From the NCBI GenBank assembly GCA_964620175.1, contig CAZUIL010000001.1, positions 12,584-76,583 on the forward strand: a stretch of DNA of 64,000 nt. The letters run 5' to 3'. This document shows positions 4,908 to 62,034 of this stretch, piece after piece. A program made the translations under genes and the position numbers. A model generated the notes under the pieces. The model did no database searches. It worked only from the letters and a program-made list of their open reading frames with translations, and was not told the DNA's origin. Positions within the stretch are counted from its first letter, which is position 1. Every line of letters starts with the position of its first letter. The DNA comes from an uncultured Candidatus Saccharibacteria bacterium (lineage in GTDB: Bacteria > Patescibacteriota > Saccharimonadia > Saccharimonadales > CAYZZS01).

Positions 4908-6944
4908 GTGGAGCTAGACCAACCGGTATCAGCAATTAAAGGTGTAGGCGAGGAAATTGCCAAGAAGTACAGGCAGCTTGGGATTGGCAGTGTTGAAGAA
5001 CTCATCGCCTACTATCCGAGGCGTTACGATGATTACTCCAGCATTGAACCGATTGCCGGCATTAAACCCGGAATGGTGACCATACGGGCGTACGTTAAGC
5101 AGGTGAAAGGCAGGTATGTCCGCCGGGGACTGCATATTACTGAAGCAGTTGCCAGTGACGACAGCGGCAGCGTTCGCCTGGTGTGGTTCAACCAGCCGTA
5201 CCGCGAATCAGGCATAAAGCGTAACGCCGAATATTTTATCTCAGGGCAGTTCGAACTCAGCCGGCAGCGGCTGGCAATTATGAATCCATCGGCTGAACTG
5301 GTCAGTGATTTTCCTCTAAACACAGCGCGCATTGTGCCGATATACCGGGAGACGAAGGGCTTGAAATCGCAAATGGTCCGGCGTCACCTGAAGCAGCTGG
5401 TGCCTACGATGCGGGCCTTGCCTGAGTCATTGCCAGCCTGGATAGTGAAACAGAACCAGCTGCTATCCTTGTCCAACGCTGTCGTAACAATGCACTTTCC
5501 AGCGTCATCAGCCGAACTGGCCGACGCAAAACGGCGGCTCGGGTTTGAAGAAGTATTCCAGCTTAGTTTGGCCAGCCAGCTCAATAAGCATGAGTTGTTG
5601 CTGGAGCAAGCAGTCAGCATACCCTTCGATGAACGGCTGGCCAAGCAGTTTGTGGCCCATTTACCGTTCAAGCTAACCGACGCGCAGCGCCGTGCCGTCT
5701 GGCAAATATACTTGGACATGCAAAAGACCCAGCCGATGAATCGGCTACTCGAAGGTGATGTGGGGTCAGGTAAGACTGTGGTCGGTACAATGGCGGCGGT
5801 TATGGCGATCAACCAGGGTTTTCAAATTGCATTTATGGCGCCGACGGAAATCCTTGCCCGCCAGCATGCTGAGACGGTTCACAGGCTGCTCCAACCTCTA
5901 GGCCTAGCCGGTTCGGTCGGGTTGCTTATCGGGGGCATGCCGGCCAGCCAAAAACGGCTGGCGTACGAGCAAATAGCAAACGGCAGCGTTCAGTTCCTCA
6001 TTGGCACCCACGCTTTAATACAGGAAAAGGTTGACATGCATAAGCTTGGCCTCGTGATTGTTGATGAACAGCACCGATTTGGCGTTGAGCAGCGCAAGAA
6101 ACTCCAAGCCAAGGCCGGTCATATGCCGCACGTGCTTAATATGACCGCGACGCCGATACCGCGGAGTCTGGCGTTAACGTTGTACGGTGAGCTGGATGTA
6201 ACTATCATCGAGACAAAACCGCACGGCAGAAAGCCGATAGTGACAAAGATATGTTCTCCGAACTCAAGACAGCAGCTCTATGAAACGGTTGAAAGGGAGC
6301 TTGTGGCCGGCCGCCAGATGTTTGTGGTGTGTCCACAGATTTCCAGCAGCTCGTCGTCCGGAGGGAGATCTGCCGAGGCAGTTTACGAACAGCTTAGAAA
6401 GGGCCCGTTTAAGCACCGGCGCGTCGGATTGCTGCACGGGCGCATGAACCCTTCGGAAAAAAGTTCCGTGATGGAACAATTTTCGCAGCACGAGCTTGAT
6501 ATTTTAGTAGCGACAACCGTCATAGAGGTTGGAGTTGATGTGCCAAACGCTAGCGTGATGATAATTGAAGAAGCTGACAAGTTCGGCCTGGCACAAATGC
6601 ATCAGCTGCGTGGCCGCGTTGGCAGAGGCAGTCATCAAGGTTACTGCTACCTGGTGACGAGTGATTCCTCAGCTCCATCCAAGCGGCTCCGTGCGCTCGA
6701 GCAATCAACTGACGGTTTTAAGCTGGCAGAACTGGATCTTGATATCCGTGGACCTGGCGCAATCTATGGAACCCTCCAACACGGCCAGCTTGATCTGCGG
6801 GTGGCGAATTTAGCAGACACCAAGCTGATTGCGGCTGCCCGGTTGTCAGCTAAGGAGTTCGTTAAGCGCGGCGAAAATCTGTTAAAATACCCTTATCTGC
6901 ATGACCGCGTAAAACAGCTTCGTTCTGTTACTAACCTCAACTAG
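4908..6944 (+). CDS. recG: ATP-dependent DNA helicase RecG
   Basis: 678 aa with Walker A DVGSGKTVV and VIVDEQHRFG (motif II), RecG-like N-terminal wedge region and GTG start. Confidence 0.88.
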   Translation: MELDQPVSAIKGVGEEIAKKYRQLGIGSVEELIAYYPRRYDDYSSIEPIAGIKPGMVTIRAYVKQVKGRYVRRGLHITEAVASDDSGSVRLVWFNQPYRESGIKRNAEYFISGQFELSRQRLAIMNPSAELVSDFPLNTARIVPIYRETKGLKSQMVRRHLKQLVPTMRALPESLPAWIVKQNQLLSLSNAVVTMHFPASSAELADAKRRLGFEEVFQLSLASQLNKHELLLEQAVSIPFDERLAKQFVAHLPFKLTDAQRRAVWQIYLDMQKTQPMNRLLEGDVGSGKTVVGTMAAVMAINQGFQIAFMAPTEILARQHAETVHRLLQPLGLAGSVGLLIGGMPASQKRLAYEQIANGSVQFLIGTHALIQEKVDMHKLGLVIVDEQHRFGVEQRKKLQAKAGHMPHVLNMTATPIPRSLALTLYGELDVTIIETKPHGRKPIVTKICSPNSRQQLYETVERELVAGRQMFVVCPQISSSSSSGGRSAEAVYEQLRKGPFKHRRVGLLHGRMNPSEKSSVMEQFSQHELDILVATTVIEVGVDVPNASVMIIEEADKFGLAQMHQLRGRVGRGSHQGYCYLVTSDSSAPSKRLRALEQSTDGFKLAELDLDIRGPGAIYGTLQHGQLDLRVANLADTKLIAAARLSAKEFVKRGENLLKYPYLHDRVKQLRSVTNLN

Positions 6945-55586: not shown

Positions 55587-56369
55587 ATGGTGCGCAGCTT
55601 AGAGAACCTGCCAGCACAGCATGAGTACGAAACGAAATTGCCGGTTCTGCAGGATATCCATAGCATTGATTCGCTGCGCCAGCCGTTCTTACAAACTCAC
55701 TATGCGGAAAAGTTGGCGGCAAATCCGCCCCGCTTCTTCCGCTATGTTTGGGATGACGTTGAGAAGTTTAAAGAGAAGTTTGGTCCAGATGTTGACCCAG
55801 TGCAGCATGGCCCCTACCAAGCCCGTACTATCGCCATCCCTATGATTGAAGCACAGCGCCAGGCAGACAACCTGCCGCAACTGTCAGCGTTTGAGGAAGC
55901 TCATTTTGTAGCCTTGCATGTCGTACATGACGACCACGAGGGGATAACCGGCGATACAGACAAACTCGACCGGACAATTGAAATGGAGCATGCCGAGTTT
56001 GTAGAATGGAAGAGGATTATCACCGAAATACATGGTGAAGCTAAAACTGCAGAGTTTATCAGTATGGCAGTATTATTCATGCATGGTGACGGAGGGTTTA
56101 AAGCTGACTTCTGGGAAGCCAGCGAGGTCTTAGGCTACTACGAAAGCGGTGTCCGTGCCTGGCTACTCGGTGATGAAGACGGCTTAACAGACACCGAACG
56201 TAAAAAGGCACTGACCATGGGTTATTGGGTTGTGGCCCACAATCTTCGCACCCTTGAGTCTGTCAGAGATAAGATCGCGCATGTCGACGAAATCCTTATT
56301 AGTACCGCAGACATAGTGGGGGCTATCTGCAAAGCATCCGACATAACCAGACAGGAGTTGATGCTGTAA
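55587..56369 (+). CDS. HD-domain phosphohydrolase (5'-deoxynucleotidase YfbR-like)
   Basis: The H...HD...D pattern (VQHG ... LHVVHDDHEGITGD). SD GGAGGA before the ATG at 55587. A TTG alternative is at 55563. Confidence 0.5.
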   Translation: MVRSLENLPAQHEYETKLPVLQDIHSIDSLRQPFLQTHYAEKLAANPPRFFRYVWDDVEKFKEKFGPDVDPVQHGPYQARTIAIPMIEAQRQADNLPQLSAFEEAHFVALHVVHDDHEGITGDTDKLDRTIEMEHAEFVEWKRIITEIHGEAKTAEFISMAVLFMHGDGGFKADFWEASEVLGYYESGVRAWLLGDEDGLTDTERKKALTMGYWVVAHNLRTLESVRDKIAHVDEILISTADIVGAICKASDITRQELML

Positions 56370-58690
56370 TGGGCACGACACAGGGCACATTTATCGTTAT
56401 AGAAGGTACCGATGGGTCAGGCAAGGGCACGCAGTTCAAGCTGCTTGTCGACAAGCTGAAAGATGAGGGGTATGACGTCGCAGGCTTTGATTTCCCGCGC
56501 TATGACGAGCCTTCTAGCTATTTTGTCCGTGAGTATCTAAACGGCAACTATGGTACAGCCGAAGAGGTCGGCCCGTACACCGCCTCGATGTTCTATGCAC
56601 TTGACCGTTACCAAGCGGCACCTGATATCCAGCGCGCGCTTGATGATGGCAAAGTAGTAGTTGCGAACCGTTTCACCGGCTCCAGCATGGCGCACCAGGG
56701 CACCAAGTTCCATAATGCCGAAGAGCGCCGCGGCTATTTTATCTGGCTTGATAACCTTGAGTACCAGATGCTTGGCATACCGCGCCCGGACAAGAGCTTT
56801 GTGCTGCGAGTACCCGCCGATACGGCACAAAAGCTCGTCGACCAAAAGGAGAAGCGAAGCTATACTGACAAGAAACGTGACATCCATGAAGCTGATATCA
56901 ATCACCTCACCATGGCGGTGGAGGTGTATGATGACCTCTGCCAACTCTTTCCGCGTGACTTTTCACGCATCGATTGCGTCCGCAATGATGAGCTTCTCGA
57001 TGTCACAACTATTAGTAAACTACTGTGGGAGAAAGTACAGCCTATGATGCCGCCAAAGCCCGATGGGACGGATCGAAAAAAAAATAAACCAAAAGAAGTG
57101 ATTTCAGATAATCCATTCGTAAAAAAGACTGCTGATGGCTACCAGGTTACTGAGCAAGGCAAGCAGTTCCTGGGCGAAGCAGTCACCGATGTGGACGGCG
57201 ATGTGTATGCCTTTAGCGAAACGTTAAGTCCTGTCACGATTGCGGCAGCAATGGCAAGACTAAGCCGCCGGGGGGATGACATGCGTATCACCATTCTTGA
57301 CGAGTTCGCCGCATCGCTTGGCAAGGACGAACAGCTGCTGCAGCGGGTCATCACGGCATATGGCGACGACTCTGTGCAGCAACTCGTCGGCCAGCATGTC
57401 GTAGTAGAAGGGGCGAGCAATTTACTGACGAAGAAGCTGGAGTGGGGCAGGCTTGCGGCTTATCTTGAGCAGTCCACCCGTTATATTTATTTTGACCAAA
57501 AGGACAGTTCCGGTAATTACCGTTACTACACGCCGAACACCCTCGTTGGTAAGGCTGCAAGGCACTACAACCAGCAGATGGATCGGATATTTGAGCTGTA
57601 TTCAAAGATGGTGCGCGAACTGACTAAATACGTGCAGGACAAATCCACGGTTCCGGAGTCTGAGCGCGATATTGCCTGGAAGGGAGCTACTCGTGCCCAA
57701 GCTTGTGACGCTATACGGCCAGTGCTGCCGGTGGCAACTAAATCAACAGTCGGCATCTACGCATCTGGCCAGGCGCTGGAGAGCCTGATAATGCACCTGC
57801 TAAGCGACGAACTGCAGGAAGCAAGGGATACCGGTGAGAAGATGCTGCGTGAGGCCCGGAAAGTTATACCTACCTTCTTGGAGCGGGCCGACAAGCCGGA
57901 CCGGGGCGGTGCAGCCATTGCCTACCGGAGCAATACCCGCTCAGCCGTGAAGCAGCTGGCGAATGGGCTCCTAAAAGAGACTTATGGTTCGTCTGTTGAA
58001 CCGGTCCAGCTGTTAAGTGCCTGGCCGCGGAATGAACTCGACCTAGTGCCCGATATGCTCTATGAGCATAGCAGCTTGCCGCTCAGCGAGATCATTAGCC
58101 AAGCCCAGGGATGGGATTATGATAAAAAGGTCAGGGTATTCAATGCCTATATCGGCGAACGGCTCAATCGGCGCCACCGGCCTGGCCGTGCGCTGGAAAA
58201 GGCCCACTATAGTTGGGATCTGGTCTGCGACTACGGGATTTTCCGTGACCTCCAGCGGCACCGGATGGTTGACGACCTCGCCTGGCAAATGCTGACTCCC
58301 CGCTACGGCTATAATGTCCCGACACTAGTCGAAGAGGCAAACTTAACTGAGGAGTTTCAGGAATGTTTTGACATTAGCCTGGAGCTTTATAGCTACTTAC
58401 AATCTGAAGGGTATGAGCTTGAAGCCCAGTACGCGACGCTCCTCGGCCATAAGATGCGCTGGAAAGTTACCTACAACGCCCGTGAGGCGTTCCATCTCCA
58501 TGAGTTACGCACCAGTCCGCAGGGACACCCCGGCTACCGTAAATTGGTATCGGAAATGCATGAAAAGCTAGCCGAAGTACACCCGTTGCTGGCTGACGCT
58601 ATGAAGTTCGTTAACCGCGATGAGGATCCTGAACTGACCCGCTTGGCGGCGGAGCGCTACACACAGTTCAAGTTAAAGCAACTAACTTAA
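56369..58690 (+). CDS. tmk-thyX: Thymidylate kinase fused to tandem flavin-dependent thymidylate synthase (ThyX) domains
   Basis: N-terminal FIVIEGTDGSGKGTQ P-loop with the DRY...SMAHQG Tmk motifs. Two ThyX-like repeats follow: the first is degenerate (WGR...STRY), the second keeps the RHR signature (FRDLQRHRMVDD), NAREAFHLHELR and a C-terminal helix. Confidence 0.7.
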   Translation: MGTTQGTFIVIEGTDGSGKGTQFKLLVDKLKDEGYDVAGFDFPRYDEPSSYFVREYLNGNYGTAEEVGPYTASMFYALDRYQAAPDIQRALDDGKVVVANRFTGSSMAHQGTKFHNAEERRGYFIWLDNLEYQMLGIPRPDKSFVLRVPADTAQKLVDQKEKRSYTDKKRDIHEADINHLTMAVEVYDDLCQLFPRDFSRIDCVRNDELLDVTTISKLLWEKVQPMMPPKPDGTDRKKNKPKEVISDNPFVKKTADGYQVTEQGKQFLGEAVTDVDGDVYAFSETLSPVTIAAAMARLSRRGDDMRITILDEFAASLGKDEQLLQRVITAYGDDSVQQLVGQHVVVEGASNLLTKKLEWGRLAAYLEQSTRYIYFDQKDSSGNYRYYTPNTLVGKAARHYNQQMDRIFELYSKMVRELTKYVQDKSTVPESERDIAWKGATRAQACDAIRPVLPVATKSTVGIYASGQALESLIMHLLSDELQEARDTGEKMLREARKVIPTFLERADKPDRGGAAIAYRSNTRSAVKQLANGLLKETYGSSVEPVQLLSAWPRNELDLVPDMLYEHSSLPLSEIISQAQGWDYDKKVRVFNAYIGERLNRRHRPGRALEKAHYSWDLVCDYGIFRDLQRHRMVDDLAWQMLTPRYGYNVPTLVEEANLTEEFQECFDISLELYSYLQSEGYELEAQYATLLGHKMRWKVTYNAREAFHLHELRTSPQGHPGYRKLVSEMHEKLAEVHPLLADAMKFVNRDEDPELTRLAAERYTQFKLKQLT

Positions 58691-58962
58691 ATACCGTCCT
58701 CTCTCATTCTTATGAAGGCCATGATTGCTTGCTGTCCGAGACTTGTTTCAATAGATTTAACTTCAATATCTACTTGATTCAAGTGGCTGTCCAATTGTTC
58801 CACAATGTCTCGCAGATGCCAGTGCGGCGTCTGGCCATTCAGTTCAATTTCCAGACCGTTATTTTCACGAATGTAATTAATAAACTCACCACCAGTCAGT
58901 CGGGATTCTGCTTCAGGTTCTTTTTTACTACCAATTGTGTGTTGTCTCTCAAAAACTGACAT
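58687..58962 (-). CDS. Hypothetical protein (minus strand, convergent with tmk-thyX)
   Basis: 91 aa with SD GGAG 6-9 nt upstream of the ATG. No family recognised. Confidence 0.45.
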   Translation of the reverse strand: MSVFERQHTIGSKKEPEAESRLTGGEFINYIRENNGLEIELNGQTPHWHLRDIVEQLDSHLNQVDIEVKSIETSLGQQAIMAFIRMREDGI

Positions 58963-59238
58963 TTTGTAACTCCGAACGTTATTTATACGCTTTTACACAC
59001 TAAAATCAACTGTCTGCTTGGAATGGCAATTGGAGAGAATTAGGAAATGCGAGCTTATAAAAGCTCAAGCAAAGTTCCTATAAGAGACGGTAGGCCCTGA
59101 GAGACGCAAGAAAAGTTGCGCAACCATTCTCAGAGAGGCGAACAGCGCTATGTACGCTAATCAGGGTCAATGAATTACCCTGCCGCCCGCTACGGAACAT
59201 CGTTGTCCGATAGCCCTACCTGACAGCTTGTGCATCGG

Positions 59239-59439
59239 CTACTTCCTACAAAGTCGAGCGAATTCACGCTCCCTTCGCTGCAACCGGTTTTGCCAATCCG
59301 GCACCAATTCCGGCCGTTCGACAGCCAGTTGTGACTGCAACAGTGTCCTGTACCTGCAAATCTGCTTTTCCAGGCCACGCAAGTTTTCCATACGTCGCAT
59401 TACCTTTACATCAGGGTTCCAAGACGCGTCGGCAACCAT
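59239..59439 (-). CDS. Hypothetical 66-aa Arg/Gln-rich protein
   Basis: SD GGAGAGG before the ATG at 59439 (the TTG alternative at 59457 gives 72 aa). The RBS lies inside one arm of a 12-bp inverted repeat. Confidence 0.4.
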   Translation of the reverse strand: MVADASWNPDVKVMRRMENLRGLEKQICRYRTLLQSQLAVERPELVPDWQNRLQRREREFARLCRK

Positions 59440-59547
59440 TGGTCTCTTCCTCTCCAATTGCTAATGTGCTGTCCCCCCATTGGGACCTGGGAAACTGAGT
59501 TCCCATGGCTAGACTCGCAATAAGTCCAGGCACGGAAGCGCAGCTGT

Positions 59548-59592
59548 TAAAAAAACCGGCTCTTTTGGTTGGAGCCGGTTATTGATTTTCGT
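59548..59592. terminator. Bidirectional intrinsic terminator
   Basis: A7 run, then 9-bp stem AACCGGCTC/GAGCCGGTT with a 9-nt loop, then a T-rich tail. Functional on both strands. Confidence 0.6.
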
Positions 59593-59916
59593 TCTGCTTT
59601 TTAGCGTATAACTACTCCAACCACTTATTTCGCCATAATGAGCACGAGACCATACTTGCGGCATGGCATGTGCTGTGCGAATAGTGTTTGAAGTTTTGTT
59701 ATCACGAATATCAACTTAACGCGCACGGCGCCTATTGTCAAGCATGTTCCTGCAGTGTGTTGACAAATTTCAGCGGTAGGCACAGTATTAGAGCTATGGC
59801 ACGCCGCAATACAGGCATGACTATTACAGCGCACCGATTTGTGCGGTGTTGATAGTAGTTGCCAAAACAGACGCTAAAAACCCCGCAAGGGGTGATTTTA
59901 TTTAAAGGGAGAGATT

Positions 59917-60147
59917 ATGGAAAACCAGCCACCGCTCGACAAGTCAAATGAAATAGTAACTGTTGATGGCCCGACCGCAGCTGAGTTACTGGGGTCTCGG
60001 GCGCTTCGTCAGCTGCAAGCCCACGAAGCAGGACAAACAAGCGAAATGGTTGAATACGGCAACGGCCGCCGGCTCAAAGTAGGCAATACAATCTTTATTC
60101 CATTTCGAAGCAACAAGGAACCTAATGCTGACCAGAGTGAGTATTGA
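59917..60147 (+). CDS. Hypothetical 76-aa protein
   Basis: SD AGGGAGAG. A CCCC-GCAA-GGGG hairpin lies immediately upstream. Confidence 0.45.
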   Translation: MENQPPLDKSNEIVTVDGPTAAELLGSRALRQLQAHEAGQTSEMVEYGNGRRLKVGNTIFIPFRSNKEPNADQSEY

Positions 60148-60270
60148 CACTAGGGCCCAAATAATTTAGAATGTAGCAGATTACCAAAGACAGTAGCGTT
60201 TGCCTACGAGCGAATTAAGAAGGCTACCGAGGTTCAACAAGCAAGTACGTATAGTCGTAGAGTTGTAAAC

Positions 60271-60297
60271 GTCTTTGGTAGCCCAAAGGCTTTTTTT
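60271..60297 (+). terminator. L10 (rplJ) leader attenuator hairpin
   Basis: GTCTTTGG-tagc-CCAAAGGC followed by T7, 50 nt upstream of rplJ. Confidence 0.55.
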
Positions 60298-60346
60298 ATG
60301 GCTCGTTAACAAACAAGGTCGATCAGTAAACTAACAGAGGTTTCAA

Positions 60347-60877
60347 ATGGCTTTATCGAAAGACAAGAAGCATGAAATAGTTCGTGAGGTAGCGGACCTG
60401 CTGTCTGCCTCAAAACTAACGGTAGTAGCAAAATATCAGGGTACAACGGTGGGAGCAATGCAAACCCTGCGCCGTGAGGCCCGACAGAACGGGACAAATG
60501 TCAAAGTAGTGAAAAACCGCTTGCTTAAGAAGGCAGTGGAGCAAGTCGACACATTAAGCGAGGTGGACACCAGTATGCTAGACGGCATGTTGATGTACGC
60601 GTTTAACAGTGATGACGAAGTTGCGCCAGCACAGGCGCTCGCTACTTTTGCCAAGACCAATCCAAATATTGAATTTGTCGGTGCGATCACATCAGAAGGC
60701 AAATTCATTGGTCCAGAGGATGTCAAAGCACTAGCTGACTTGCCGAGCAAAGAACAATTGCGCGGCATGTTGGTAGGCACCATCGCGGCACCGCTAAGCG
60801 GTTTCGTCAATGTGCTGGGTGGTAATGTGCGTAGCGTATTAAATGTACTAAATGCACGTGCAGAAGCAATTAAATAG
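60347..60877 (+). CDS. rplJ: 50S ribosomal protein L10
   Basis: L10 homolog. Confidence 0.93.
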
Positions 60878-60887
60878 GGAGAATAGT

Positions 60888-61298
60888 ATGTCTGAAGAAG
60901 CAAGTAAAGTAGAAGTTCCAAAAGAGTTTGAAAAGCTCGTAGCTGAGCTTGATAAAATGTCAGCGCTAGAGATCAGTAAGTTCGTCAAGTTCCTTGAAGA
61001 GTACTGGGGCGTGAGCGCTGCCGCGCCAGCAATGGCAGTCGCTATGCCAGCCGGTGGAAGTGAAGCTGCGCCAGCTGAAGAGGAGAAAAGCGAGTACGAC
61101 GTTATCCTTAAGGATGCCGGGGCTCAGAAGGTTGCAGTTATCAAGGCCGTAAAGGATATAACCGGCCTTGGCCTTGGTGAAGCAAAGGCAATCGTTGACG
61201 GCGCTCCAAAGCCAGTGCTTGAAAAGGCCAAGAAGGAAGATGCTGAAAATGCCAAGAAATCGCTCGAAGAGGCTGGAGCGACGGTAGAGCTGGCGTAG
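60888..61298 (+). CDS. rplL: 50S ribosomal protein L7/L12
   Basis: [10 protein letters not shown]...Ala-rich hinge...C-terminal domain [23 protein letters not shown]. Start internal to the track ORF, with SD GGGAGA. Confidence 0.93.
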
Positions 61299-61338
61299 GC
61301 ATACATCTACCAGCTCCCCTGGTAACAGGATACTTTTA

Positions 61339-61365
61339 TACCCGCCGAATCCGGCGGGTATTTTT
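61339..61365 (+). terminator. Rho-independent terminator after rplL
   Basis: TACCCGCCG-aatc-CGGCGGGTA followed by TTTTT. Confidence 0.65.
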
Positions 61366-61470
61366 ATCCACAGTTTTTTATTGTTGCTTTGACTTGACTT
61401 TTGAAACATGATAGTTTTAGGCGTAAGTGTACTTAAACAAACACTTTACTGTTAAGAGAGACATGAGGAC

Positions 61471-61980
61471 ATGGCAGACGTACCGGAAAAGCAAATCAAA
61501 CGGCTGAGGACGCTTATTCAGGAAGCTGAGACGAGCTTAGCGGCAGCTAAGGAACTGCTGGTAAGTCTGGTCGGTGATGACGAAGTTGTCACAACAGGTG
61601 CCAAAGAAGAGTCACTTGGCAAGGTAATCGAAGGTGTGTTTGATGGGCAAAACATGGTCGGGTCGGACAGTAAGACCTATCCGGTTCCAGCCAATTATGC
61701 ATCAAAGTCGAAATTGGTACAGGGAGACATACTGAAGCTTACCATCGCTGAAGACGGTTCCTTTTTATACAAACAAATTGGCCCTATTCCTAGAAAGCAA
61801 GTCGTCGGCACGCTTAAGCTGGAAAACGGCCACTACTACGTTGATGTCAATGGCAAGCTCTACCGCGTACTACTCGCAAGCGTCACTTATTTCAAGGCCA
61901 AGCCGGGTGATCAGGTAAGCGTCAACATTCCTGAAGACGACGCCAATGCTGAGTGGGCAGCATTGGAAGCGGCACTCTAG
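61471..61980 (+). CDS. Hypothetical protein
   Basis: 169 aa with its own RBS. No family recognised. Confidence 0.5.
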   Translation: MADVPEKQIKRLRTLIQEAETSLAAAKELLVSLVGDDEVVTTGAKEESLGKVIEGVFDGQNMVGSDSKTYPVPANYASKSKLVQGDILKLTIAEDGSFLYKQIGPIPRKQVVGTLKLENGHYYVDVNGKLYRVLLASVTYFKAKPGDQVSVNIPEDDANAEWAALEAAL

Positions 61981-62034
61981 CATAGGCAATTCAACAACAA
62001 CCATAACCATTTCAGTCAGCTATAATGGTGTGGA

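What the first reader, a model, noticed from the sequence alone, without database searches (positions are those of the whole stretch)
58687..59916. Oppositely oriented 1.2-kb low-coding locus with two small ORFs, palindromes and a bidirectional terminator, wedged before rplJ
In an otherwise densely coding, + strand-only region, this stretch has no ORF longer than 91 aa. It carries two minus-strand genes with good RBSs: a 66-aa Arg/Gln-rich protein and a 91-aa protein, separated by a 275-nt structured spacer. A near-perfect intrinsic terminator works on both strands (59548-59592). A 7-bp inverted repeat TTGTCAA...TTGACAA (59735-59766) has operator-like spacing. A GNRA-capped hairpin sits directly before the + strand 76-aa gene at 59917. 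The ORF sizes suggest a TA-like or regulatory module, but nothing matches a described family. The long non-coding stretches could instead encode a structured RNA.
Basis: seen in the sequence. Interest (0 to 1): 0.65.

Follow-up and report, generated by a model that had tools for sequence, protein, structure and literature searches.

The report
Two back-to-back leader-peptide transcription attenuators
The "low-coding" stretch before rplJ in this Saccharibacteria genome holds two divergent promoters, each followed by a tiny leaderless reading frame and a terminator switch of the textbook attenuation type, and these control small orphan genes; the mechanism is known, but it does not appear to have been described in this phylum.

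Summary

- **Organism and locus.** The window comes from a Saccharimonadales (Saccharibacteria) genome. The tmk-thyX to rplJ gap is a hypervariable locus in 80 related genomes.
- **Minus-strand attenuator.** The "bidirectional terminator" and one arm of the "operator-like" repeat belong to a conserved unit at 59547-59741. It comprises a TTGACA promoter, an invariant GTG 8 nt after the -10 box, a 26-codon micro-ORF, a rod-like hairpin, and covarying antiterminator and terminator helices. Twenty-three relatives carry it at the same place. All length variation inside the micro-ORF is in whole codons.
- **Plus-strand attenuator.** The other repeat arm is the -35 box of a second unit (59760-59903). 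It has an 18-codon leaderless ORF, and the "GNRA hairpin" is its terminator. Sixteen relatives have homologues with Ile-rich peptides, some directly upstream of ilvA or ridA-ilvA.
- **Regulated genes.** The 91-aa and 76-aa ORFs are strict orphans. The 66-aa ORF has no support.
- **Excluded readings.** No Rfam family matches. Nothing points to a toxin-antitoxin pair or a decayed gene.

Verdict: these are new members of a known kind, ribosome-mediated attenuators. The closest analogue is the leaderless ilvBNC attenuator of Corynebacterium. The signal sensed and the function of the regulated genes remain unknown.

The parts
58687..58962 (-). 91-aa ORF (p91). It is the distal regulated gene of the minus-strand unit and is convergent with tmk-thyX, overlapping its stop codon by 4 nt. 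It has an SD (GGAG) and a possible promoter of its own.
   Evidence: ORF list. It was called as a gene in an NCBI contig of 90.6 kb and in a Logan contig. No relative was found in 5.8 billion proteins or among 1.84 billion representatives by HMMER. Its only Pfam match is far below threshold (E 0.14). The AlphaFold model has pLDDT 45 and is unusable.
58963..59238 (-). 276-nt spacer of unknown role. It contains the hairpin GAGCTT/AAGCTC.
   Evidence: Fold z-score is -3.2 on the minus strand and -1.6 on the plus strand. There is no Rfam match and no similarity to any related locus.
59239..59439 (-). 66-aa ORF (p66). It has a strong SD but is unsupported as a gene.
   Evidence: It is absent from the protein collection and has no homologue. 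No Pfam match. About 21 of 24 nt around its SD and ATG are shared with locus L003, but the L003 67-aa ORF is not similar in protein sequence.
58991..59549 (.). 559-bp segment between the attenuator and p91. It is missing from the Logan contigs of run SRR7082976, which stop exactly at its two ends. It may be a strain-variable insertion.
   Evidence: In relatives the regulated ORF starts 1-18 nt after the U-run in 16 of 20 loci where a first ORF was scored.
59549..59580 (-). Intrinsic terminator of attenuator 1 (regions 3 and 4). The stem is CCGGCUC/GAGCCGG plus AA/UU, followed by a seven-U run at 59555-59549.
   Evidence: It is conserved with compensatory changes in 23 relatives (helix 8).
59615..59622 (-). 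Region 2 (GGUUGGAG). It pairs either with region 1 inside the micro-ORF or with the 5' arm of the terminator (CUCCAACC, 59574-59567), forming the antiterminator.
   Evidence: Antiterminator helix: 84.5% of cells paired against 21-51% when slid, with G-C/A-U swaps. RNAalifold picked this helix by itself. Masking test.
59625..59705 (-). Leader micro-ORF 1. GTG start, 26 codons (MITKLQTLFAQHMPCRKYGLVLIMAK), TAA stop 2 nt before region 2. It also forms the 5' half and apex of a rod-like hairpin (P1-P4).
   Evidence: An open frame of 23-27 codons with a GTG or ATG start occurs in 23 of 23 relatives. The distance from the start to the invariant Arg codon is 39, 42, 45 or 48 nt, always a multiple of 3, while untranslated spacers vary in all classes. 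Structure: 80% paired against 34-45% when slid. The antisense frame is broken by stops.
59714..59741 (-). Promoter of attenuator 1. The -35 TTGACA is at 59741-59736, followed by a 16-nt spacer and the -10 TTAAGT at 59719-59714. The GTG lies 8 nt downstream, so the transcript would be leaderless.
   Evidence: TTGACAA and a TAnAnT box are conserved in all aligned relatives, with 7-10 nt between the -10 box and the GTG.
59760..59788 (+). Promoter of attenuator 2. The -35 TTGACA is at 59760-59765, followed by a 17-nt spacer and the -10 CAGTAT at 59783-59788. The ATG lies 7 nt downstream.
   Evidence: The same layout (TTGACA, 15-18 nt, -10-like box, 6-8 nt, ATG) occurs in 16 homologous leaders. The -10 box is weak (3 of 6) and was not listed by the promoter scan.
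59796..59852 (+). Leader micro-ORF 2. ATG start, 18 codons (MARRNTGMTITAHRFVRC), TGA stop. A small hairpin CACCG/CGGUG sits at its 3' end.
   Evidence: Homologues were found by nhmmer in 16 relatives. All are 16-20 codons and Ile-rich, at 24% Ile. The window copy has only one Ile.
59880..59903 (+). Terminator of attenuator 2. The SD and the p76 start codon follow directly.
   Evidence: A terminator hairpin is present at this position in 17 of 17 family members. Pairing of regions 2 and 3 in the window is weak (-10.5 kcal/mol, z -1.0).
59917..60147 (+). 76-aa ORF (p76), the gene regulated by attenuator 2. It is an orphan.
   Evidence: Only itself was found in 5.8 billion proteins. No Pfam match and no PDB sequence match. 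The AlphaFold model has pLDDT 62, and Foldseek gives no hit with E < 0.06.
60166..60305 (+). Ribosomal protein L10 leader (Rfam RF00557). It lies outside the finding and, together with its promoter at 60144-60172, marks the right border of the variable locus.
   Evidence: The same family was found upstream of rplJ in 9 of the 10 relatives scanned.

Best explanation
The locus consists of two divergently transcribed, leaderless leader-peptide transcription attenuators placed back to back. Each controls small lineage-specific genes.

**Unit 1 (minus strand).**
- RNA polymerase starts about 7-8 nt after the -10 box, at or next to an invariant GTG.
- A ribosome translates a 26-codon micro-ORF.
- The 5' half of that ORF (region 1) pairs with the segment just after its stop codon (region 2, GGUUGGAG), forming a long hairpin.
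- When region 2 is held in that hairpin, or is covered by a ribosome sitting at the stop codon, the terminator (regions 3 and 4, plus seven U) forms and transcription ends at about 59549.
- When a ribosome stalls inside region 1, region 2 is free to pair with the 5' arm of the terminator. Transcription then reads through into the downstream genes: a 559-bp stretch that may encode a 66-aa protein, then the 91-aa ORF.

**Unit 2 (plus strand).** It has the same logic, with an 18-codon ORF and the GCAA-capped terminator, and it controls the 76-aa ORF.

**Shown.**
- The conserved promoter.
- The conserved reading frame, with indels only in whole codons.
- Covarying hairpin, antiterminator and terminator helices.
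- In most relatives (16 of 20 loci where a first ORF was scored), the SD and start codon of a downstream gene follow 1-18 nt after the U-run.
- Relatives of unit 2 carry Ile-rich peptides upstream of ilvA or ridA-ilvA.

**Inferred.**
- That the micro-ORFs are translated.
- That the transcripts are leaderless.
- That ribosome stalling is the trigger.
- That the signal is a shortage of charged tRNA. This is likely Ile or Leu in relatives. It is unclear in this genome, because both of its peptides have lost most Ile codons.
For: **Conservation of unit 1.**
- nhmmer and a covariance model find the element in 23 of 80 related tmk-thyX loci. It is always in the same place and orientation, and it occurs once in the window.
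- Its fold has a z-score of -6.4.
- 80% of cells are paired against 34-45% in slid controls, and 23 of 37 pairs show changes on both sides.
- The antiterminator is 84.5% paired against 21-51% when slid, and RNAalifold predicted it independently.

**Evidence that micro-ORF 1 is coding.**
- A GTG or ATG start and an open frame of 23-27 codons, ending 0-12 nt before UUGGA, occur in 23 of 23 relatives.
- The start-to-Arg-codon distance is 39, 42, 45 or 48 nt, a multiple of 3 in 23 of 23. Untranslated spacers vary in all residues mod 3.
- The start codon lies 7-10 nt after the -10 box.

**Folding tests on unit 1.**
- With region 1 masked, regions 2 and 3 pair in 22 of 23 sequences.
- With a ribosome at the stop codon, the terminator forms in 23 of 23.

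**Downstream genes.** Among relatives the regulated ORF begins 1-18 nt after the U-run in 16 of 20 loci where a first ORF was scored.

**Unit 2.**
- Sixteen homologous leaders have 16-20-codon, 24%-Ile peptides and a terminator. They are followed by ilvA (L030, L045), by ridA-ilvA (L020, L062), or by small ORFs.

**A third type in relatives.** Eighteen relatives carry a leader peptide with 26% Leu. In L034 and L038 it sits directly before a cimA/leuA-like gene.

**Published analogue.** Corynebacterium glutamicum has leader peptides upstream of trpE, leuA, ilvB and aroF (PMC3890552). Its ilvBNC attenuator is leaderless, with an anti-antiterminator hairpin that covers the start codon (PMC11857589).
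Against: - There are no expression data of any kind.
- The best-conserved codons of unit 1 (K-H, C-R, Y-G, V-L) are also the two strands of stems P3 and P4. Peptide conservation and RNA conservation therefore cannot be separated.
- Codon-position entropy is only mildly periodic: 1.11, 1.02 and 1.27.
- Leaderless GTG initiation is inefficient in model bacteria and is undocumented in this phylum.
- The window's two peptides have no run of any one amino acid. Unit 1 has 2 Ile and 4 Leu; unit 2 has 1 Ile, 3 Thr and 4 Arg.
- The regulated genes are orphans, not biosynthetic genes.
- In 10 of 23 sequences the minimum-energy fold of the truncated transcript already prefers pairing of regions 2 and 3 without a ribosome.
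- For unit 2 in the window, the pairing of regions 2 and 3 is weak (z -1.0).
- RNAalifold found no consensus structure on the MAFFT alignment of the unit-2 family.
- In the window, 559 bp separate terminator 1 from p91, and p91 may have its own promoter.
Confidence: 0.65

Rival explanations
1. Unit 1 is an RNA-only sensor: a riboswitch, or a protein- or RNA-binding leader. On this reading the rod-like hairpin is the ligand-binding domain, and it drives the same terminator/antiterminator switch. The open frame would be a by-product.
For: The RNA has strong, covarying structure. The conserved 'codons' coincide exactly with stems P3 and P4. An asymmetric internal loop and a GA bulge are conserved. 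The window's peptide has no run of any one amino acid.
Against: The start codon is invariant at a fixed distance from the -10 box. The frame is open in 23 of 23 sequences, and indels occur only in whole codons. The stop codon always lies just before region 2. Two other leader types at the same locus have unmistakable Ile-rich and Leu-rich micro-ORFs. No Rfam family matches.
Confidence: 0.15
2. The micro-ORF of unit 1 encodes a functional small protein, or the 160-nt transcript is a stand-alone small RNA. On this reading the hairpin with its U-run is simply its terminator, and the downstream ORFs are expressed on their own.
For: The peptide core AKHxCRxYGxVL is conserved beyond what a codon-counting attenuator needs. 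The window's p91 has a plausible promoter and SD of its own, and it lies 585 nt from the terminator.
Against: In most relatives (16 of 20 loci where a first ORF was scored) the next gene's SD and ATG follow 1-18 nt after the U-run, leaving no room for a promoter. Region 2 and the 5' arm of the terminator covary as an alternative helix, which a plain terminator does not need.
Confidence: 0.1
3. The 66-aa and 91-aa ORFs form a toxin-antitoxin-like pair.
For: The only support is the sizes of the two ORFs and their shared strand.
Against: Neither ORF has any Pfam match with E <= 0.1; PADLOC and the other libraries were not scanned. p66 has no homologue and was never called as a gene. p91 is an orphan. 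A 276-nt gap separates them, whereas such pairs are normally adjacent or overlapping (established knowledge). No relative has a comparable pair.
Confidence: 0.02
4. The stretch 58991-59549, and perhaps p91 too, is the decayed remnant of a longer gene that relatives still carry under the same leader.
For: Relatives have 85-176-aa ORFs immediately after the leader. In the window that position holds only short frames. GC content is higher there (0.53) than in the flanks.
Against: tblastx and tblastn of the region against all ORFs found in the relatives' gaps give no significant match outside the leader itself.
Confidence: 0.08

Closest known systems
Leaderless ilvBNC (and leuA, trpE, aroF) leader-peptide attenuators of Corynebacterium glutamicum
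   Same: Both have a short leader ORF translated from a leaderless transcript. Both have a first hairpin that involves the start-codon region and acts as an anti-antiterminator, followed by antiterminator and terminator hairpins (PMC11857589, PMC3890552). Here, helix P0 pairs the GUGA start region with the segment after region 2.
   Different: There is no sequence similarity. The start codon is GTG in unit 1. In this window the peptides lack runs of Ile, Leu or Val codons, and the regulated genes are orphan small ORFs rather than a biosynthetic operon. The phylum is different (Saccharibacteria).
Classical enterobacterial amino-acid attenuators (trpL, leuL, ilvL/ivbL, thrL, hisL; Rfam leader families)
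   Same: They share the 1:2, 2:3 and 3:4 alternative pairings, a stop codon just upstream of region 2, and an intrinsic terminator right before the regulated gene. Relatives of unit 2 have Ile-rich peptides before ilvA, and the third type has a Leu-rich peptide before a cimA/leuA-like gene.
   Different: The enterobacterial leader ORFs use an SD, whereas these appear leaderless. No Rfam leader model matches. Two units are arranged divergently, and in most relatives they share one near-palindromic -35 box.
Nascent-peptide sensor leaders (TnaC, SpeFL, Erm/Cat leader peptides)
   Same: These are short leader ORFs of similar length (TnaC has 24 codons) in which the amino-acid sequence itself, not codon counting, matters. 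Unit 1 has a conserved peptide core.
   Different: No known arrest motif is shared. This is a resemblance recalled from knowledge and was not tested. Conservation of the core can be explained by the RNA stems.
Ribosomal protein L10 leader (RF00557)
   Same: It is a neighbouring cis-regulatory leader with a terminator, at 60166-60305.
   Different: It is a separate element outside the finding. It binds a protein and has no micro-ORF.

Membership tests
Ribosome-mediated (leader-peptide) transcription attenuator | A short ORF with a start codon in the 5' leader, kept in frame among relatives | tested here: met
   Unit 1: 23 of 23 relatives have a GTG or ATG start and 23-27 codons, with indels only in whole codons. 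Unit 2: 17 of 17 family members have an ATG and 16-20 codons.
Ribosome-mediated (leader-peptide) transcription attenuator | An intrinsic terminator between the leader ORF and the regulated gene | tested here: met
   In relatives the regulated ORF starts 1-18 nt after the U-run in 16 of 20 loci where a first ORF was scored.
Ribosome-mediated (leader-peptide) transcription attenuator | Mutually exclusive 1:2, 2:3 and 3:4 pairings, with region 1 inside the ORF and the stop codon next to region 2 | tested here: met
   This holds for unit 1: covariation of all three helices and the masking test. For unit 2 in the window it is inconclusive: the 2:3 z-score is -1.0, and RNAalifold found no consensus.
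Ribosome-mediated (leader-peptide) transcription attenuator | Enrichment of codons for the sensed amino acid in the leader peptide | tested here: inconclusive
   Relatives of unit 2 have 24% Ile and the third type has 26% Leu. Unit 1 relatives have 12% Ile, with an Ile-Ile doublet in region 1. The window's own peptides have only 2 and 1 Ile and no run of any residue.
Ribosome-mediated (leader-peptide) transcription attenuator | Regulated genes belong to the metabolism of the sensed amino acid | tested here: not met
   In the window the regulated genes are orphan ORFs. The feature is met only in some relatives, which carry ilvA, ridA-ilvA or cimA/leuA-like genes.
Ribosome-mediated (leader-peptide) transcription attenuator | Translation of the leader ORF controls read-through in vivo | not testable with these tools
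   This needs 5'- and 3'-end mapping, toeprinting and reporter mutants.
Metabolite riboswitch of a described class | Match to a curated aptamer model | tested here: not met
   An Rfam 15 scan found nothing at E <= 1 over 57000-62000, and only terminator look-alikes at E <= 10 over 58900-59950. Ten relatives were scanned at the gathering threshold and gave only the L10 leader.
Toxin-antitoxin module | Two adjacent small genes, at least one of which belongs to a known toxin or antitoxin family | tested here: not met
   Neither ORF has any Pfam match with E <= 0.1. There are no homologues. A 276-nt gap separates the ORFs. PADLOC was not scanned.

The most novel reading that the evidence does not exclude
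Unit 1 may not be a codon-counting attenuator. It could be a sequence-specific nascent-peptide sensor. On this reading the conserved core, AKHxCRxYGxVL(I/V)MAK, stalls the ribosome in response to a small molecule or a translation stress. Stalling would then switch on a hypervariable set of orphan small proteins in an epibiotic bacterium, for example factors for host interaction or stress. A paired Leu- or Ile-type attenuator faces it, and in most relatives the two share one palindromic -35 box, so the two outputs could be mutually exclusive.
Probability: 0.15. Interest if true: 0.75.

Novelty: new member of a known kind. Interest (0 to 1): 0.45.

Why it matters
- **First report in this group.** If confirmed, these would be the first leader-peptide attenuators described in Saccharibacteria or Patescibacteria, as far as the searched literature shows.
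- **What they imply about the cell.** These ultrasmall bacteria would couple transcription to translation and initiate on leaderless transcripts. Some of them would also regulate ilvA, ridA and cimA/leuA-like genes by Ile- and Leu-type attenuation, although the group is usually described as lacking amino-acid biosynthesis.
- **Practical uses.** The elements offer a native regulatory part, which the field has asked for (PMC11665869). They also give an annotation rule for a hypervariable locus that gene callers leave blank.
- **For this window.** An odd-looking "non-coding" kilobase turns out to be an ordinary, well-understood type of control region in front of genes of unknown function.

Tried and rejected
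- **First reading revised.** I initially read unit 1 as a riboswitch-like aptamer. I changed this after seeing the invariant GTG and the whole-codon indels.
- **Metagenome scan wasted.** I scanned metagenome contigs with the pattern TGCCGYN{3,6}TWYGGNNNNGTGYTYNTNNTGG to find the leader in other contexts. 
- **Homologue searches.** Searches for p91, p66 and p76 found nothing beyond the proteins themselves.
- **Structure prediction.** Single-sequence AlphaFold gave pLDDT 45 for p91 (unusable) and 62 for p76. Foldseek against the PDB gave no hit below E 0.06 and TM scores under 0.45. A first impression from secondary-structure order that p76 might be an excisionase-like winged helix got no support.
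- **p66 compared with L003.** p66 and the 67-aa ORF at the same position in L003 show no alignment. p91 against the L003 87-aa ORF gives E 0.099, which is only suggestive.
- **Weak model hits.** Plus-strand covariance-model hits in L029, L041, L061 and L054 matched only the linker and terminator. They belong to other leaders.
- **Antisense frame.** A conserved-looking plus-strand frame across unit 1 (…LFRHNEHE…) is the antisense reading of the leader. It is broken by stop codons in the window and in several relatives.
- **Chance hit.** An nhmmer hit of the unit-2 profile at window 4984-5040 lies inside a 678-aa ORF and is due to chance.
- **RNAalifold.** It gave no pairs on the MAFFT alignment of the unit-2 family.

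Full report
**Setting.** The window comes from a Saccharibacteria genome of the order Saccharimonadales. The 773-aa protein ending at 58690 is a thymidylate kinase-ThyX fusion. Its 80 best relatives in the species-level genome collection are nearly all labelled Saccharibacteria, Saccharimonadales or Saccharimonadia; the rest carry broader labels (Patescibacteria group, or simply 'bacterium'). In those genomes the order dcd, tmk-thyX ... rplJ, rplL, conserved 169-aa gene is kept. The distance from thyX to rplJ, however, ranges from about 0.5 to 5.5 kb. The finding therefore lies in a hypervariable locus. Its right border is the ribosomal protein L10 leader (Rfam RF00557, 60166-60305) with a near-consensus promoter at 60144-60172.

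**Check of the observation.**
- The 91-aa and 66-aa minus-strand ORFs are there, and nothing longer is.
- The spacer is 276 nt and folds moderately better than shuffles on the minus strand only: z -3.2 against -1.6.
- The hairpin at 59554-59580 is there.
- The 7-bp inverted repeat and the GCAA-capped hairpin at 59880-59893 are there.

No Rfam family matches inside 58687-59916, even at E <= 10.

**The conserved core.**
- The three ORFs (91, 66 and 76 aa) have no counterpart in any of the 80 related loci.
- In contrast, about 170 nt of DNA at 59547-59720 is conserved.
- Aligned in minus-strand sense, it shows three things: a TTGACAA box, a TAnAnT box 16-17 nt later, and then a transcript that ends in a hairpin with six to eight U.
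- A covariance model built from 18 copies finds 23 full copies among the 80 loci. All lie after thyX on the minus strand. The window contains exactly one.
- The window copy folds with z -6.4.
- On the 23-sequence alignment, 80% of cells pair, against 34-45% when the partners are slid. Twenty-three of 37 pairs show changes on both sides.
- The 3' strand of the basal helix (UUGGAGnn) is also complementary to the 5' arm of the terminator. This alternative helix is 84.5% paired against 21-51% when slid, with G-C/A-U exchanges. RNAalifold chose it unprompted.
- The element is therefore a terminator/antiterminator switch.

**It contains a reading frame.**
- The only invariant bases at the 5' end are G-T-G, 7-10 nt after the -10 box.
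- From that GTG (ATG in two genomes), all 23 relatives and the window have an open frame of 23-27 codons. It stops 0-12 nt before UUGGA.
- The distance from the start to the invariant Arg codon takes four values: 39, 42, 45 and 48 nt. It is a multiple of three in 23 of 23 sequences.
- The two untranslated spacers vary in all residues mod 3.
- The antisense frame is interrupted by stops in the window and elsewhere.
- The window peptide is MITKLQTLFAQHMPCRKYGLVLIMAK (59705-59625).
- The geometry is that of a classical attenuator. Region 1 lies inside the ORF, region 2 just after the stop codon, and regions 3 and 4 form the terminator.
- In a folding test, masking region 1 (a stalled ribosome) gives the antiterminator in 22 of 23 sequences. 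Masking the stop-codon neighbourhood gives the terminator in 23 of 23.
- One caveat applies. The best-conserved codons (K-H, C-R, Y-G, V-L) are also the two strands of stems P3 and P4, and codon-position entropy is only mildly periodic. Coding and structural constraints are therefore confounded.

**The other half of the locus.**
Seven nt further on is an ATG (59796) that opens an 18-codon frame, MARRNTGMTITAHRFVRC.
- Next come the GCAA-capped hairpin with its T-rich tail, then an SD, then the 76-aa ORF.
- A profile of this unit finds 16 homologues in relatives. All have the same promoter-to-ATG spacing, 16-20 codons, peptides with 24% Ile (for example MTQQGIISIIIMPPQARR), and a terminator.
- In those relatives the next gene is ilvA (L030, L045), ridA-ilvA (L020, L062) or a small unknown ORF.
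- Most relatives carry a third type facing unit 1: a 22-30-codon peptide with 26% Leu (M..LKQLLLLGLTGLCFSMVEA). The end of its ORF (GUUGAAGCC) is complementary to the 5' arm of its terminator. In L034 and L038 it sits directly before a cimA/leuA-like gene.
- These two families make the leader-peptide reading of unit 1 much more credible.
- In most relatives the two divergent promoters share one near-palindromic -35 box. In the window, L030 and L045 there are two separate boxes.

**The regulated genes.**
- In relatives, the SD and ATG of an 85-176-aa ORF follow the U-run of unit 1. In 16 of 20 loci where a first ORF was scored the gap is 1-18 nt. These ORFs fall into at least two small families plus singletons, none with a Pfam match.
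- In the window, 585 nt separate the terminator from the 91-aa ORF.
- p91 is a strict orphan. Only itself is found in 5.8 billion proteins and among 1.84 billion representatives.
- p76 is likewise an orphan.
- p66 is absent from the collection and has no homologue. About 21 of 24 nt around its SD and ATG recur in L003, but the ORF there is unrelated in sequence.
- Structure prediction was uninformative.
- The Logan contigs of run SRR7082976 end exactly at 58990 and 59550. If the 559 bp between them were removed, p91's SD and ATG would lie about 27 nt after the U-run, as in relatives. This suggests a strain-variable insertion, but it is not shown.
- No trace of a decayed relative's gene was found.

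**Comparison with what is known.**
- The mechanism is textbook ribosome-mediated attenuation.
- The closest described analogue is the leaderless ilvBNC attenuator of Corynebacterium glutamicum. Its first hairpin covers the start codon and acts as an anti-antiterminator (PMC11857589). Leader peptides also precede trpE, leuA, ilvB and aroF in that organism (PMC3890552).
- I found no description of natural attenuators or riboswitches in Saccharibacteria or Patescibacteria in the searchable library.
- The defining features of the family are met for the ORF, the terminator and the alternative helices.
- They are not met in this window for codon enrichment or for regulated genes linked to the metabolism of a sensed amino acid. 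Regulation in vivo cannot be tested here.

**Verdict.** The 'regulatory / structured RNA' idea is right in spirit, but it applies to a different part of the region. The locus is best explained as two back-to-back leaderless leader-peptide attenuators controlling orphan genes (confidence 0.65). These are new members of a known kind. Interest is moderate. The signal they sense in this genome and the function of the regulated genes remain open.

Noticed in passing
window 61471-61980 (+): The 169-aa ORF after rplL has no Pfam hit on record. It is nonetheless 69-90% identical across the related loci that reach it (75-90% where the match is full length). It is better conserved than ribosomal protein L10 (48-71%) in the same loci.
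   Followed up: no
window 56369-58690 (+): A thymidylate kinase and ThyX are fused into one 773-aa protein. The fusion is conserved in at least 347 genome hits.
   Followed up: partly
L003-L082, between thyX and rplJ: The gap varies from 0.5 to 5.5 kb. In some Saccharimonadales it holds ilvA, ridA, cimA/leuA-like, ilvE-like and M20 peptidase genes. This is notable for a group described as lacking amino-acid biosynthesis.
   Followed up: partly
e.g. L034:8978-9110, L038:9034-9160, L053:9307-9440 (+): This is a third leader type, absent from the window. It is a leaderless 22-30-codon ORF encoding M..LKQLLLLGLTGLCFSMVEA (26% Leu), followed by a long-range helix (GGGCUGUGC/GCACAGCCC) and a terminator. 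It faces unit 1 and shares a near-palindromic -35 box with it.
   Followed up: partly
window 58990 and 59550: Two Logan contigs from run SRR7082976 end exactly at these positions. This brackets 559 bp and hints at strain-level presence/absence variation.
   Followed up: partly
window 60144-60172 (+): A near-consensus promoter (TTGACA, 17 nt, TAGAAT; 11 of 12 matches) for the L10 leader overlaps the stop codon of the 76-aa ORF.
   Followed up: no
L061:8412-8545, L041:8553-8618, L029:8384-8547 (+): In these relatives yet another leader lies on the plus strand directly after thyX. It has its own promoter, a GGCUCGnAGGAGC hairpin and a similar terminator, and it precedes 102-379-aa ORFs. I did not analyse it for a micro-ORF.
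   Followed up: no
window 61315-61367 (+): A weak sub-threshold Rfam hit (anti-hemB, 24 bits against a gathering score of 49.5) lies just after the end of rplL (61298). The match is mainly a GC-rich hairpin followed by a U-run, so it looks like an intrinsic terminator.
   Followed up: no
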